From: Deltaproteobacteria bacterium RIFCSPHIGHO2_02_FULL_44_16
Lineage (GTDB): Bacteria > UBA10199 > 2-02-FULL-44-16
Assembly: GCA_001798185.1 (NCBI GenBank)
Contig: MGRM01000005.1
Coordinates: 19,925-83,924 of the forward strand
Direction of reading: 5' to 3'
Length of the DNA stretch: 64,000 nt
Shown: piece after piece, positions 2,645 to 5,579 of the stretch
Numbering within the stretch: position 1 is the stretch's first letter
How the letters are laid out: the number at the start of each line of letters is the position of its first letter
The notes under the pieces: model-generated
Told to the model about the DNA's origin: nothing
The model's database searches: none
The model's input: the letters and a program-made list of their open reading frames with translations, nothing else
Translations under genes and position numbers: made by a program

Positions 2645-3420
2645 AAAATCTTTTCGATCTTACAGATCGTGTGGTAGTCGTTACGGGAGGAGCAGGGACG
2701 CTTGGGAGAAGTTTTGTTTCGGCATTTCTTCAAGCCGGGGCAAACGTTGTCATTGCTGAAAAGGATGTTGAATGCGCAAATGATTTTGTTTCTCAATTAC
2801 AGTATAAAGATCGTGTACAGTCTGTAGCTCTCGATATCTCATCTGAATCTTCTCTTCTCTCTTGTATGACCGACATCGTAAAGCGCCAGGGACGTATCGA
2901 TGTCTGGATCAACAACGCTTATCCACGCACGAGCGATTGGCATCTTCCCTTCGATAAAATTCCTTTTGCGTCATGGCAGAAAAATATCAATGATCATTTG
3001 AATGGCTATTGCTGGTGTGCCCGCGAGGTGGCCGAAGAAATGAAAAGCCACGGCAGTGGCTCGATCATTAATATTGCCTCTATTTATGGAATTGTTGGCC
3101 CCGATTTTTCGATTTACGAAGGAACACAGATGACGATGCCAGCAGCCTATGCAGCGATCAAAGGAGGCATTGTTCAGTTCACGCGCTATTTAGCCTCTTG
3201 GTACGGTTCTTCTGGAGTACGGGTGAATACGATCTCTCCTGGTGGTATTGAAGCGGATCAACCGAAAAGTTTTAAAGAAAAATATATCGCGCGAACACCG
3301 CTCCGCCGCATGGGGACGCCTGAAGATATTTCAGGTGCAGCCCTTTTTCTCGCTTCCGACGCTTCATCTTATATGACCGGCCACAATCTCGTGATTGATG
3401 GCGGTTGGAGTATTATATGA
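2641..3420 (+). CDS. SDR family oxidoreductase.
   Basis: It has the TGGAGTLG Rossmann motif and SDR length (259 aa). It overlaps the upstream gene in an ATGA junction. Confidence 0.75.
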   Translation: MKNLFDLTDRVVVVTGGAGTLGRSFVSAFLQAGANVVIAEKDVECANDFVSQLQYKDRVQSVALDISSESSLLSCMTDIVKRQGRIDVWINNAYPRTSDWHLPFDKIPFASWQKNINDHLNGYCWCAREVAEEMKSHGSGSIINIASIYGIVGPDFSIYEGTQMTMPAAYAAIKGGIVQFTRYLASWYGSSGVRVNTISPGGIEADQPKSFKEKYIARTPLRRMGTPEDISGAALFLASDASSYMTGHNLVIDGGWSII

Positions 3421-5579
3421 AAATTTTAAGTACCCTTGGTCCCGCCTCGTTGAAAAAAGAGATCATTCAAAAGTTAGATGTGCTTGGTGTTGACATTTTT
3501 CGTATTAATCTTTCCCATGTGGGTCTCGATGTTCTCGAGCAGATCATTTGCACCATCAAAGAAGCGACTTCAAAACAGATTTGTATTGATACGGAAGGGG
3601 CGCAAATCCGCAATCGATACATGGAAAAGAATGTGCAGGTGAAAGAAAATGCGCTCATTGAACTGACCTCTCAAGAAGTGCTTGGCAATGAACGTCTGCT
3701 TTCACTTTCACCGACCTTTGCGGTCGATCTCATTGAAGAGGGGAGTTTTGTCAGTATCGATTTTGATTCTGTCTTTTTACACGTGATTGAAAAAAAACCG
3801 GGGAAACTCATTGCCAAAGTTCTTTCGGGCGGCACGATCGGAAGTAATAAGGCTGTGACGGTCGATCATCCGGTAGCTCTCCCGGTGCTTTCAGAAAAAG
3901 ATGAAAAAGCCATCGAGCTTGCAAAAAAATATGGCATTGATTGTTACGCACTTTCATTTGCTTCAAGCGCCAAAGCGGTGAAGTATGTTCGCGAACGTAT
4001 AGGATCATCGGCATTTTTAATCTCAAAAATTGAAAGTCGGCAGGGTGTTCGCAATGTGGACGAAATTCTTGAGGTCACTGATGCAATTCTGATTGATCGC
4101 GGCGATCTTTCGCGTGAAGTGGCCATTGAAAAAATTCCCTTTCTTCAAAAACTTCTGATTCAAAAAGCGAATGAGAAAAAAGTGCCAGTGTTCGTTGCAA
4201 CAAATCTTCTCGAATCAATGACTGATCGTCGGAAACCGACACGCGCTGAAATGAATGATGTCATGAATACACTTCTTGATGGAGCCGATGGCCTTGTTTT
4301 AGCGGCTGAGACTGCAGTGGGAAAACATCCGCGCGATTGTGTGGCTCTTGTCTCCTCGTGTATTCAGCACTTTCAGGAATGCACCAAGATAAAATCTTGT
4401 GATGATCTTCTGGCAGATCATTCCTTTTTTCTCACAGCACCACACGGTGGGACATTAGTAGAAGCGTTGTCGGAAAAGAGAGATCGAGAGGAACTTTCTG
4501 CTTTTCCAACTCTTTTTGTGGATGAAACCACCTTGATGGATGCAGAGCAGATTGCCATTGGAACCTTTTCTCCGCTTCGTGGATTTATGACGCGTGAAGA
4601 GGTGCAGCATGTTCTTTCTGACTATGCTTTGCCAACAGGAACACCTTGGCCTCTTCCTATTCTCTTTCAAGTATCACAGGAACAAGCTGCACGTTGTCGT
4701 GAAAACAAATGTGTTGCTCTTGCGTCGTCGCAAACAAAACAAGTTCATGCGCTTCTTCAGGTAACCGATGTTTATCCTTATGATCTTAAAAAGCTCGCTC
4801 GTGAGATGTATGGAGTTGACACTGAAGAGCATGCTGGAGTGAAGCGTCTTCTGAAAAATGAGGGATGGTTTGTGGGCGGAGAAATAACGCTCGTGAGCAG
4901 ATTGCCGCGTCCTCTGAAACGTTATGAACTCACGCCTCGTCAGACGCGCATTATTTTTGAACATCAGGGATGGAGTCGTATCGTCGGTTTTCATACACGC
5001 AATGTGATTCATCGCGCGCATGAAGCGCTTCAACTCACGGCGCTCGAAAAATATGGATGCGATGCGCTTTTTGTGCATCCGGTGGTGGGCCCAAAAAAGA
5101 AGGATGACTATACATCTGAAGTGATTCTCAAAAGTTATGAACATATGGTGGAACATCATTATCCTTCGCAGGTGCTCTTAGCAGCCTTCTCTACGTTTTC
5201 GCGATATGCAGGTCCACGCGAAGCGGTCTTTACAGCGCTTTGCCGGAAAAATTTCGGATGCAGTCATTTCATTATGGGACGCGACCACACAGGTGTCGGA
5301 GAGTTTTATGCAGCCGATGCGTCCCAGAAGCTTTTTTCCGAAATGGGAGATTTAGGAATTCAACCTGTTTTCTTTGATCGTGTTTCCTATTGCGATAAAT
5401 GTGGTCGTCATGTGGAAACATGCGAGCATGGAGAAGCAGCGCATCTTTTTATCAGTGGAACCAAAGCGCGAGAGATGTTGATGGCAGGAGAACGACCCCC
5501 GGAATGGTTTATGCGTTCGGATATCTCAGATCTTTTAATGAAAGCGATGAAGGAAGGAAAAGAAGTCTTTGTCTCCTAA
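3417..5579 (+). CDS. sat: Fusion protein: an N-terminal pyruvate-kinase-like barrel domain joined to a complete ATP sulfurylase (sulfate adenylyltransferase) with its PUA-like and catalytic domains.
   Basis: The first ~330 aa align with pyruvate kinase (LGPAS, [54 protein letters not shown]). The C-terminal ~390 aa carry ATP sulfurylase motifs ([30 protein letters not shown]). Confidence 0.8.
   Translation: [720 protein letters not shown]

What the first reader, a model, noticed from the sequence alone, without database searches (positions are those of the whole stretch)
3417..5579. Pyruvate-kinase-like domain fused to a complete ATP sulfurylase
The first ~330 aa align convincingly with the pyruvate kinase barrel and nucleotide/PEP site ([56 protein letters not shown]). 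The remaining ~390 aa form a full ATP sulfurylase with its PUA-like domain and the QTRN/HRAH and GRDHTG motifs. I do not know of a described PK-Sat fusion. Possible roles for the PK-like module are these:
- local ATP regeneration from PEP to drive the thermodynamically unfavourable APS synthesis, functionally replacing the CysN GTPase or a pyrophosphatase;
- a non-catalytic regulatory domain;
- channelling PEP shared with the NeuB-type synthase encoded in the same locus.
Basis: seen in the sequence. Interest (0 to 1): 0.75.

Follow-up and report, generated by a model that had tools for sequence, protein, structure and literature searches.

The report
Pyruvate-kinase–ATP-sulfurylase fusion for glycan sulfation
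A single gene joins a shortened but catalytically intact pyruvate kinase to a complete ATP sulfurylase; it sits beside an APS kinase and a sulfotransferase, belongs to a widespread family I found no paper on, and most likely uses phosphoenolpyruvate to power synthesis of the sulfate donor PAPS for sugar-polymer sulfation.

Summary
Window 3417-5579 (+) is one intact 720-codon gene. It encodes a pyruvate-kinase barrel with lid domain (PF00224, E 4e-69) but no allosteric C domain, then a PUA-like domain and an ATP sulfurylase (E 2e-77). The identical protein lies uninterrupted on 9 independently assembled contigs. The architecture recurs in hundreds of species across many bacterial phyla and some archaea. 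All canonical PK catalytic, metal and ADP-contact residues are invariant in 119 homologues, and both halves are equally constrained.

The PK part belongs to a distinct short-PK clade with fixed active-site changes. That clade is also found fused to APS kinase, to Sat plus APS kinase, to decayed Sat remnants, or alone directly upstream of an APS kinase. In 69% of well-flanked PK-Sat loci the adjacent gene is CysC or a sulfotransferase; NeuB occurs in 28%.

Best reading: a PEP-driven PAPS-supply module in which PK re-phosphorylates the ADP made by APS kinase. The activity is inferred, not shown.

Two points stay unexplained: the clade-specific substitutions, and the fact that Sat decays repeatedly while PK does not. 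They leave room for an unrecognised reaction. I found no paper describing the fusion. I rate it a new variant of a known kind.

The parts
3417..5579 (+). PK-Sat fusion gene (720 aa + stop). The ATG overlaps the stop of the upstream SDR gene (ATGA), with a GGAG 7 nt upstream.
3417..4346 (+). Pyruvate-kinase A (TIM barrel) domain with the inserted B (lid) domain, residues 1-310. Catalytic equivalents are R29, N31, S33, H34, D58, T59, R65, K145, K204, E206, D230, T262, E298. There is no PK C-terminal allosteric domain.
   Evidence: Pfam; alignments to solved PKs; invariance in 119 homologues; AF2 and Foldseek
3612..3881 (+). PK B/lid domain (residues ~66-155, all-beta). It contains K145, the equivalent of rabbit PK K206, which contacts the nucleotide phosphates.
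   Evidence: DSSP strands 73-149; K145 conserved
4347..4436 (+). Variable linker, residues 311-340 (mean pairwise identity 0.34). It lies where the PK C domain would begin.
   Evidence: lower pLDDT
4437..4898 (+). PUA-like N-terminal domain of ATP sulfurylase (residues 341-494).
   Evidence: PF14306, 134.3 bits
4920..5543 (+). ATP sulfurylase catalytic domain (residues 502-709). It carries FHTRN..HRAH (526-535), GRDHTG (621-626) and a Cys3His zinc-type motif (C659, C662, C669, H671).
   Evidence: PF01747; NF003166 and TIGR00339 above cutoff; 8A8D/1V47; conservation
5569..6105 (+). APS kinase (CysC), 178 aa from TTG 5569 (alternative in-frame ATG 5599). Its start lies next to the fusion's stop codon at 5577-5579.
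   Evidence: PF01583; TIGR00455 148.9 vs cutoff 138.7
7694..8647 (+). Sulfotransferase (317 aa), the presumed consumer of PAPS.
   Evidence: PF00685 and PF13469 above cutoff
6109..7725 (+). GMC-oxidoreductase-like protein (538 aa) between CysC and the sulfotransferase. Its role is unknown and it is not a recurrent neighbour elsewhere.
   Evidence: PF05199 on the C-terminal part only; no NCBIfam model
1..3420 (+). Upstream co-directional nonulosonic-acid genes: NeuB (cut by the window start), GFO/IDH/MocA oxidoreductase, CMP-sugar cytidylyltransferase and an SDR.
   Evidence: full-length NeuB of 368 aa in L091

Best explanation
The gene encodes a bifunctional enzyme that is the core of a self-contained PAPS-supply module inside a large glycan-biosynthesis island.

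The proposed reactions are:
- The C-terminal half makes APS from ATP and sulfate.
- The next gene (CysC) phosphorylates APS to PAPS and releases ADP.
- The N-terminal short pyruvate kinase uses phosphoenolpyruvate to turn that ADP back into ATP on the spot.
- The net reaction becomes ATP + PEP + sulfate -> PAPS + pyruvate + PPi.

This would keep ADP low, and so avoid the dead-end APS-kinase.ADP.APS complex and product inhibition. It would keep ATP high for the unfavourable sulfurylase step, and it would tie sulfation to PEP supply. The nearby sulfotransferase then sulfates the glycan.

Shown here: the domain identities, intact catalytic residues in both halves, conservation of the fusion, and its linkage to CysC and sulfotransferases.

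Inferred: PK activity, ADP as the acceptor, any kinetic coupling or physical complex with CysC, and the idea that the Sat (or Sat-like) domain takes over the oligomerisation or regulatory place of the missing PK C domain.
For: - Both halves pass the curated models. PF00224 scores 233.7, PF01747 259.5 and PF14306 134.3 bits. NF003166 scores 407.8 against a cutoff of 387, and TIGR00339 323.2 against 322.95.
- The PK residues for PEP, Mg, K+ and nucleotide phosphates (rabbit R72, N74, S76, H77, D112, R119, K206, K269, E271, D295, T327, E363) are invariant or nearly so in 119 homologues and across all architecture classes.
- The two halves are equally constrained: mean pairwise identity is 0.55 for PK and 0.56 for Sat.
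- The AF2 model is confident (pLDDT 91.4, pTM 0.77). The halves superpose on PK A+B domains and on 8A8D/1V47 (TM 0.92).
- Rosetta-stone evidence: the same short-PK clade is fused to APS kinase (P0173, P0218) and to Sat+APS kinase (P0205, P0217, P0239).
- Standalone members are followed directly by an APS kinase gene (L083, L084, L094). Members with a dead Sat are too (L088, L089).
- Of 61 PK-Sat loci with at least 8 kb of flank, 48 have CysC or a sulfotransferase within 10 kb, and in 42 one is the adjacent gene.
- The window's CysC passes TIGR00455 and its start lies next to the fusion's stop codon.
- Enzymology: human PAPSS1 makes almost no PAPS in vitro unless a PK/PEP system removes ADP, because APS kinase forms a dead-end enzyme-ADP-APS complex (PMC9885120).
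Against: - No activity has been measured.
- A fused PK cannot change bulk thermodynamics, and most cells already regenerate ATP. A dedicated PK therefore needs a kinetic or proximity argument, which is untested.
- If PK were merely helpful, one would expect PK rather than Sat to be the dispensable half. The opposite is seen: the Sat half decays repeatedly while the PK active site stays intact.
- The clade carries fixed active-site substitutions absent from canonical PKs: E60, Q63, D227, S232, N263, A296, A297, equivalent to rabbit K114, E117, A292, G297, Q328, S361, G362. Its T113/E114/Q117 signature fits neither the K+-dependent nor the K+-independent class (PMC8835810). This could signal altered chemistry.
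- CysC lies within 10 kb in only 28 of 61 PK-Sat loci.
- Some standalone PKs sit next to other genes, such as a Wzt ATPase or a nucleotidyltransferase-like ORF.
Confidence: 0.52

Rival explanations
1. The short-PK clade catalyses a specific, non-redundant phosphoryl (or related) transfer in sulfate activation that is not ordinary ADP phosphorylation. It might use a different acceptor nucleotide or a PEP analogue. The Sat or Sat-like domain would then serve as its partner or scaffold.
For: - Clade-wide fixed substitutions lie around the PEP C3/proton-relay side and the monovalent-cation site. They are shared by every architecture class and absent from canonical PKs.
- The cation signature is unlike both known PK classes.
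- PK is retained with an intact active site while Sat decays to a pseudo-domain or disappears. That is what one expects if PK is the indispensable activity.
- The sulfate-site Gln of Sat is replaced by an invariant His.
Against: - All residues that contact PEP, Mg and the ADP phosphates in canonical PK are conserved, including the lid-domain Lys.
- No candidate alternative substrate is suggested by the gene context.
- CysC, Sat and sulfotransferases already account for a complete PAPS pathway.
Confidence: 0.2
2. The PK domain is mainly a regulatory or structural module. It would sense PEP, ADP or energy state, or provide oligomerisation, and so gate the sulfurylase. This would mirror the inactive APS-kinase-like allosteric domain of fungal ATP sulfurylase.
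For: - The PK allosteric C domain is missing and the Sat PUA-like domain begins where it would start.
- Precedent exists for pseudo-enzyme regulatory domains in sulfurylases (1I2D/1M8P family; their allosteric role is from my own knowledge).
- pTM of 0.77 suggests a defined inter-domain arrangement.
Against: - Every catalytic residue is invariant across 119 homologues and roughly 130 clade representatives. Pseudo-enzymes normally lose these, as the dead Sat domains in this same clade do.
- The PK persists as a standalone protein with no Sat to regulate.
Confidence: 0.07
3. The PK domain serves the nonulosonic-acid pathway in the same operon, either by balancing or channelling the PEP used by NeuB or by supplying pyruvate. 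Its fusion to Sat would then be incidental.
For: NeuB, a CMP-sugar cytidylyltransferase and two oxidoreductases lie directly upstream in the window. NeuB or CTP_transf_3 genes appear in some related loci.
Against: NeuB is found in only 17 of 61 related loci and CMP-transferase in 13, against 48 for CysC or a sulfotransferase. PK consumes PEP, so it would compete with NeuB. The clade's fusion partners are Sat and CysC, never NeuB.
Confidence: 0.03
4. The fusion is a sequencing or assembly artefact (a frameshift or chimera joining two genes).
For: None found.
Against: Nine independent contigs carry the identical uninterrupted ORF. Hundreds of homologues share the same architecture. Both halves and the linker length are conserved.
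Confidence: 0.01

Closest known systems
Bifunctional PAPS synthases (ATP sulfurylase fused to APS kinase: human PAPSS1/2, Aquifex aeolicus 2GKS, NCBIfam NF004040)
   Same: Both fuse ATP sulfurylase to an enzyme that pulls the unfavourable APS-forming step forward, and both make PAPS for sulfotransferases. The Sat half is homologous. Rare PK-Sat-CysC triple fusions exist in the same clade.
   Different: Here the fused partner is a pyruvate kinase, placed at the N-terminus, and APS kinase is a separate downstream gene. NF004040 scores 238.7 against a cutoff of 669.
Stand-alone zinc-type ATP sulfurylases of Methanothermococcus thermolithotrophicus (8A8D) and Thermus thermophilus (1V47)
   Same: These are the closest solved relatives of the Sat half: E 6e-95 and 2e-76, about 40% identity, TM 0.92. 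They share the PUA-like plus catalytic layout and the Cys/His motif.
   Different: They have no PK domain. They read FQTRN where this family has an invariant FHTRN.
Canonical pyruvate kinase (e.g. E. coli PykF 1PKY, Geobacillus 2E28, rabbit M1)
   Same: A and B domains and the complete catalytic, metal and ADP residue set are shared. Identity is about 35-40%, E 5e-54. The fold superposes at 2.2-3 A.
   Different: It lacks the C-terminal allosteric domain and falls below the TIGR01064 cutoff (269.5 vs 306.4). The clade has specific substitutions at rabbit positions 114, 117, 292, 297, 328, 361 and 362. Its cation signature is unlike both the K+-dependent and K+-independent classes.
Fungal ATP sulfurylase with an inactive APS-kinase-like allosteric domain (Penicillium chrysogenum 1I2D/1M8P)
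   Same: It is a precedent for a sulfurylase fused to a second nucleotide-binding domain of the same pathway. It is also a precedent for one half becoming a pseudo-enzyme, which the dead-Sat members of this clade mirror.
   Different: In the window's protein neither half is degenerate, and the partner is PK rather than an APS-kinase-like domain.
CysDN, the GTPase-coupled sulfate adenylyltransferase
   Same: It is another natural way of spending an extra high-energy phosphate to drive sulfate activation (established knowledge).
   Different: It is unrelated in fold and mechanism. GTP hydrolysis is conformationally coupled to APS formation, and no such coupling is implied here.
Engineered PAPS cascades that add pyruvate kinase and PEP for ATP regeneration
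   Same: They use the same set of activities (Sat, APS kinase, PK/PEP). The PK is needed in vitro to avoid ADP build-up and APS-kinase inhibition (PMC9885120).
   Different: These are artificial mixtures of separate enzymes. Here the combination is hard-wired in one gene or operon in nature.

Membership tests
Pyruvate kinase (EC 2.7.1.40; Pfam PF00224 / NCBIfam TIGR01064) | TIM-barrel A domain matching PF00224 above the gathering score | tested here: met
   233.7 bits against a cutoff of 30, covering profile positions 5-328 of 328
Pyruvate kinase (EC 2.7.1.40; Pfam PF00224 / NCBIfam TIGR01064) | B (lid) domain inserted in the barrel, carrying the nucleotide-contacting Lys | tested here: met
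   Beta strands at 73-149 in the AF2 model. About 340 aligned columns to PK A+B domains at 2.2-3 A. K145 is conserved.
Pyruvate kinase (EC 2.7.1.40; Pfam PF00224 / NCBIfam TIGR01064) | Catalytic Lys, Mg ligands Glu/Asp, Thr proton donor, phosphate-binding Arg residues and K+-site Asn/Ser/Asp/Thr | tested here: met
   R29, N31, S33, H34, D58, R65, K204, E206, D230 and E298 are invariant, and T262 is present in 118/119. They align to solved PKs.
Pyruvate kinase (EC 2.7.1.40; Pfam PF00224 / NCBIfam TIGR01064) | C-terminal alpha/beta (allosteric) domain PF02887 | tested here: not met
   No PK_C match. The Sat PUA-like domain starts at residue 341 instead.
Pyruvate kinase (EC 2.7.1.40; Pfam PF00224 / NCBIfam TIGR01064) | Score above the curated equivalog cutoff (TIGR01064) | tested here: not met
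   269.5 bits against a cutoff of 306.4. The match covers profile positions 4-343 of 476 only.
Pyruvate kinase (EC 2.7.1.40; Pfam PF00224 / NCBIfam TIGR01064) | Monovalent-cation signature: T113/K114/E117 (K+-dependent) or L113/Q114/K117 (K+-independent) | tested here: not met
   The clade has T/S59, E60 and Q63. The class definitions come from PMC8835810.
Pyruvate kinase (EC 2.7.1.40; Pfam PF00224 / NCBIfam TIGR01064) | PEP + ADP -> pyruvate + ATP activity | not testable with these tools
   Needs an enzyme assay.
ATP sulfurylase / sulfate adenylyltransferase (EC 2.7.7.4; PF01747 + PF14306; TIGR00339, NF003166) | PUA-like and catalytic domains above the curated cutoffs | tested here: met
   PF14306 134.3 bits and PF01747 259.5 bits. 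NF003166 scores 407.8 vs 387, and TIGR00339 scores 323.2 vs 322.95, a marginal pass.
ATP sulfurylase / sulfate adenylyltransferase (EC 2.7.7.4; PF01747 + PF14306; TIGR00339, NF003166) | Active-site motifs QxRN..HxxH and GRDHAG | tested here: inconclusive
   HRAH and GRDHTG are present and conserved. The first motif, however, is HTRN with an invariant His in place of the Gln seen in all five closest solved enzymes. The effect on sulfate binding is unknown.
ATP sulfurylase / sulfate adenylyltransferase (EC 2.7.7.4; PF01747 + PF14306; TIGR00339, NF003166) | Fold equivalent to solved sulfurylases | tested here: met
   TM 0.92 and rmsd 2.2 A to 8A8D and 1V47.
Bifunctional Sat/APS kinase (PAPS synthase, NF004040) | APS kinase domain in the same polypeptide | tested here: not met
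   No PF01583 match in the fusion. NF004040 scores 238.7 vs 669. CysC is the separate next gene.
   16.1 bits against a cutoff of 25, E 0.007, over 45 residues only.

The most novel reading that the evidence does not exclude
The short, C-domain-less pyruvate-kinase clade is an obligatory and so far unrecognised third enzyme of PAPS synthesis in many bacteria and archaea. It would either form a PEP-driven metabolon with APS kinase, with the Sat or pseudo-Sat domain acting as scaffold or allosteric sensor, or carry out a new phosphoryl-transfer reaction reflected in its remodelled active site. In both cases PEP, not only ATP, would be a direct energy currency of biological sulfation.
Probability: 0.25. 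Interest if true: 0.85.

Novelty: new variant of a known kind. Interest (0 to 1): 0.62.

Why it matters
If the PK half works as proposed, this would be a natural fusion in which a glycolytic ATP-regenerating enzyme is hard-wired to sulfate activation. I know of no described precedent. Known solutions are fusion to APS kinase, fusion to pyrophosphatase, or coupling to the CysN GTPase.

It would be a direct natural counterpart of the PK/PEP regeneration systems that biocatalysis groups add by hand to make PAPS for heparin or chondroitin sulfation. The family could therefore supply compact one-gene or one-operon PAPS generators.

It also matters for annotation. These roughly 720-aa proteins are labelled either 'sulfate adenylyltransferase' or 'pyruvate kinase'. 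They could wrongly be counted as evidence for dissimilatory sulfur metabolism, or for a complete glycolysis, in MAGs of Omnitrophota, CPR, DPANN, Nitrospinota and others.

Finally, the clade marks sulfated-glycan loci across many phyla, including cultured rhizobia and Methyloversatilis, where the prediction can be tested genetically.

Tried and rejected
- Frameshift or chimera: rejected by 9 independent identical contigs.
- Another barrel family (HpcH/HpaI): rejected.
- NeuB/PEP channelling: rejected by the context statistics.
- Annotation of the Sinorhizobium chiapasense plasmid copy: the PLSDB table has no features there, so it was uninformative.
- AFDB fold search to see how UniProt names full-length relatives: the library was unavailable.
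- Literature: six paper queries on the fusion and a look into the Nitrospinota genomics paper found no description of it. PK appears only as a coupling enzyme in assays.
- The ~650-715 aa no-Pfam companion (cluster c40) seen next to PK/CysC in several loci has no homologue in the window. I dropped it as part of this finding.
- The truncated ORF after the standalone PK in L093 is not CysC.
- Contexts of P0134 and P0195 were too short to be informative.
- The NJ tree of PK domains has no support values and is star-like. I use it only to say that the architectures are interleaved.
- I could not obtain model coordinates or PAE, so I could not measure the distance or orientation between the two active sites.
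- The source organism of the window was not identified. There are no tRNAs, and the closest fusion homologues are only 58-59% identical (Deltaproteobacteria and Omnitrophota MAGs).
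Full report
**Observation.** Window 3417-5579 (+) is a single open reading frame of 720 codons from its ATG. Pfam places a pyruvate kinase barrel domain at residues 2-309 (E 3.8e-69), a PUA-like domain at 341-494 (E 3.8e-39) and an ATP-sulfurylase domain at 502-709 (E 2.4e-77). The only other barrel family to appear, HpcH/HpaI, is below threshold (E 0.007). NCBIfam gives sulfate adenylyltransferase above its curated cutoffs (NF003166 407.8 vs 387; TIGR00339 323.2 vs 322.95). 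It gives pyruvate kinase below its cutoff (TIGR01064 269.5 vs 306.4), because only profile positions 4-343 of 476 are matched: the C-terminal allosteric domain is absent. The sulfurylase motif reads FHTRN, not QTRN.

**Not an artefact.** The exact protein is called, uninterrupted and with identical neighbours, on nine contigs assembled from different samples. The 120 best database clusters (48-59% identity) all carry the same three Pfam domains over the full length. A scan of one genome per species returned at least 518 confirmed stretches. The 80 best are essentially full length. They come from Omnitrophota, Deltaproteobacteria, Planctomycetota, Nitrospinota, Elusimicrobia, CPR groups, Chloroflexi, Actinobacteria, Alpha-, Beta- and Gammaproteobacteria, and DPANN and Methanosarcinales archaea. 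Cultured carriers include Methyloversatilis, Mesorhizobium album, Sinorhizobium saheli and a Sinorhizobium chiapasense megaplasmid. The sources name these proteins only 'sulfate adenylyltransferase', 'ATP sulfurylase' or 'pyruvate kinase'.

**Anatomy of the PK half.** Alignment to solved PKs and conservation in 119 full-length homologues show that the canonical catalytic apparatus is invariant or nearly so:
- R29, N31, S33, H34 (the RxNxSH motif);
- D58, T/S59 and R65;
- the lid-domain K145;
- K204 and E206 (the SKIE motif), and D230 (RGD);
- T262 and E298.

The AlphaFold model is confident (pLDDT 91.4, pTM 0.77) and contains the all-beta lid domain. Foldseek superposes the N-terminal half on PK A+B domains and the C-terminal half on the sulfurylases 8A8D and 1V47 (TM 0.92). 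No solved chain contains both halves. The two halves are equally constrained (mean pairwise identity 0.55 and 0.56), and only the 30-residue linker is free to vary.

**A distinct PK clade.** The family also carries fixed differences from canonical PKs: DTKGPEIR becomes [14 protein letters not shown] becomes DRGDLS, ATQ becomes ATN, and SGETA becomes AAETA. These correspond to rabbit positions 114, 117, 292, 297, 328, 361 and 362. A PK-domain-only search of 1.84 billion representatives shows this signature in every architecture class of the clade. It is absent from the canonical PKs at the bottom of the hit list. In the literature, E117 with T113/K114 marks K+-dependent PKs and K117 with L113/Q114 marks K+-independent ones (PMC8835810, PMC4374775). 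T113/E114/Q117 is neither.

**What the clade is attached to.** Among the 150 best representatives, the short PK occurs in these forms:
- PK-Sat (about 720 aa);
- PK-Sat-APS kinase (P0205, P0217, P0239);
- PK-APS kinase (P0173, P0218; Pfam-confirmed);
- PK plus a shortened Sat;
- PK plus short tails;
- a bare 324-358 aa barrel.

The shortened Sat domains have lost HTRN..HRAH, GRDH, the zinc motif and the C-terminal region; only P0132 keeps the first two of these motifs. The 'unknown tails' are further-decayed Sat remnants. Through all of this the PK catalytic residues stay intact, with one exception (P0254) among roughly 130 representatives. On a rough NJ tree the architectures are interleaved, which points to repeated fusion, fission and decay.

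**Gene context.** In the window, the fusion's ATG overlaps the stop codon of the upstream SDR gene. An APS kinase that passes TIGR00455 starts next to the fusion's stop codon, and a sulfotransferase follows 2 kb downstream. Upstream lie NeuB, an oxidoreductase and a CMP-sugar cytidylyltransferase. The rest of the window is a glycan island of about 60 kb.

Across the 61 related PK-Sat loci with at least 8 kb of flank:

| Feature within 10 kb | Loci (of 61) |
|---|---|
| CysC or a sulfotransferase-like gene | 48 |
| ...one of these as the immediately adjacent gene | 42 |
| CysC | 28 |
| NeuB | 17 |

Recurring neighbour clusters are sulfotransferases, a CysQ-like phosphatase and a CPA-type transporter. 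Standalone PK genes are followed directly by an APS kinase in L083, L084 and L094. PK-dead-Sat genes are too, in L088 and L089. PK-CysC fusions sit in sulfotransferase and glycosyltransferase clusters. No Sat lies in the fetched stretch of the standalone-PK or PK-CysC loci (L083, L084, L094, L085/L086), and in L088 and L089 the only Sat-like sequence is the dead domain of the PK gene itself.

**Mechanism.** Three pieces of established chemistry are relevant:
- ATP sulfurylase has a very unfavourable equilibrium.
- APS kinase consumes a second ATP and releases ADP.
- PK converts ADP plus PEP to ATP with a large negative free energy.

In vitro, human PAPSS1 yields almost no PAPS, and ADP accumulates, unless a PK/PEP system is coupled. 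The authors attribute this to the dead-end enzyme-ADP-APS complex of APS kinase (PMC9885120).

The simplest reading of the conserved PK active site and its persistent linkage to CysC and Sat is a PEP-driven PAPS module. PK recycles CysC's ADP into ATP for both ATP-consuming steps. The net reaction is ATP + PEP + sulfate -> PAPS + pyruvate + PPi. I also infer that the Sat or pseudo-Sat domain occupies the structural place of the missing PK C domain. That would explain why a dead Sat is kept.

**What does not fit neatly.** Local ATP regeneration duplicates a housekeeping function, yet it is the sulfurylase half, not the PK half, that decays repeatedly. The PK active site also carries clade-specific substitutions of unknown effect. 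One explanation is that host genomes already supply APS while PK must be physically close to CysC. Another is that the clade performs a reaction not yet recognised. Sequence tools cannot separate these. I therefore give about 0.5 to the ATP-regeneration mechanism and about 0.2 to a clade-specific new reaction.

**Comparison with what is known.** The closest systems are:
- Sat-APS kinase PAPS synthases;
- the fungal sulfurylase with a dead APS-kinase-like allosteric domain;
- GTPase-coupled CysDN;
- engineered PK/PEP-assisted PAPS cascades.

The Sat half is a member of the sulfurylase family by the curated cutoffs, with an unusual Gln-to-His change at the sulfate site. The PK half has the PK fold and catalytic residues. 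It fails the equivalog cutoff, lacks the C domain and has a non-canonical cation signature, so I describe it as a distinct short-PK subfamily rather than an ordinary pyruvate kinase. No paper in the searchable library describes the fusion.

**Verdict.** This is a real, widespread fusion for which I found no published description. It is a new variant of the known theme of multi-enzyme PAPS synthesis. It gives a clear and testable prediction, and an unexplained asymmetry that could hide something more novel.

Noticed in passing
window 4992-5003 (residues 526-529): The sulfurylase sulfate-site motif reads FHTRN. The His is invariant in 119/119 fusion homologues, whereas the five closest solved sulfurylases read FQTRN. 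This might change anion affinity or specificity.
   Followed up: partly
window 3594-3605, 4095-4112, 4200-4205, 4302-4307 (residues E60/Q63, D227/S232, T262/N263, A296/A297): These are clade-specific PK active-site substitutions shared by all architecture classes and absent from canonical PKs. The T113/E114/Q117-type cation signature matches neither the K+-dependent nor the K+-independent class.
   Followed up: partly
P0121, P0122, P0128, P0130, P0131, P0136, P0139 etc.; loci L087-L089: This is a sister class in which the Sat half has lost all catalytic motifs (a pseudo-sulfurylase) while PK stays intact. It still sits next to an APS kinase or a sulfotransferase. 'PK + unknown tail' proteins are further-decayed Sat remnants.
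   Followed up: yes
L002, L003, L008, L025 (cluster c40); L084 6028-8004; L087 11881-13779: A 630-715 aa protein family with no Pfam match recurs next to PK/Sat/CysC genes. In some of these loci no recognised sulfotransferase is present (for example L084), so it could be a novel sulfotransferase or glycan-modifying enzyme. There is no homologue in the window.
   Followed up: partly
window 37122-38162 (also L088 9528-10541): A GAPDH paralogue (TIGR01534 276.9 bits, below the cutoff of 367) lies inside the glycan island. It is flanked by a CDP-alcohol phosphatidyltransferase, a HAD phosphatase and an LtaS/EptA-like 'Sulfatase'-domain protein. A GAPDH-like gene also sits near a PK-dead-Sat gene in L088. 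This is a second glycolytic-enzyme paralogue recruited to glycan loci.
   Followed up: no
cluster c11 in 12 of 61 PK-Sat loci (e.g. L023, L040, L057, L067, L066, L078): A Na_H_Exchanger-family (CPA-type) membrane transporter is frequently adjacent to PK-Sat or CysC. It may be an ion or sulfate uptake partner.
   Followed up: no
clusters c34 and c53 (e.g. L021, L023, L041, L047; L040, L057, L067): P-loop kinase-like proteins (weak Thymidylate_kin / AAA_33 matches) occur near PK-Sat, c34 in loci where no canonical CysC was detected within the neighbours examined and c53 in loci that also carry CysC. They may be divergent APS-kinase analogues.
   Followed up: no
window 6109-7725: A 538-aa protein between CysC and the sulfotransferase matches only the C-terminal GMC-oxidoreductase domain. 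It is conserved in the near-identical contigs but is not a recurrent neighbour elsewhere.
   Followed up: no
window 8638-9084, 12023-13567, 19966-20844, 30645-32060, 31896-33221(-): These ORFs of 148-514 aa inside the island have no Pfam match. The two that were also scanned against NCBIfam (8638-9084 and 12023-13567) have no match there either.
   Followed up: no
window 24027-27576: UbiA-family prenyltransferase (with a HAD-like N-terminus), a FAD_binding_4 oxidase and an SDR lie in a row. This resembles the decaprenyl-phosphoribose to arabinose (DprE1/DprE2-type) donor pathway; the resemblance is from memory.
   Followed up: no
P0001 vs window residue 262 (window 4200-4202, codon ACA): The database representative of this protein's 90% cluster differs from the window only by T262I, at the catalytic Thr. 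It is the only one of 119 homologues without Thr there.
   Followed up: partly
L093 1260-1460: The ORF that overlaps the stop of a standalone short PK begins ...LYIGRFQPFHE..., a cytidylyltransferase-type nucleotidyltransferase motif (motif assignment from memory), not CysC. The contig ends there.
   Followed up: partly
window 22165-24030 and 34463-36427: Two large membrane 'Sulfatase'-domain proteins (LtaS/EptA-like phospho-group transferases) are present. The same family (cluster c17) recurs in 9 PK-Sat loci.
   Followed up: no
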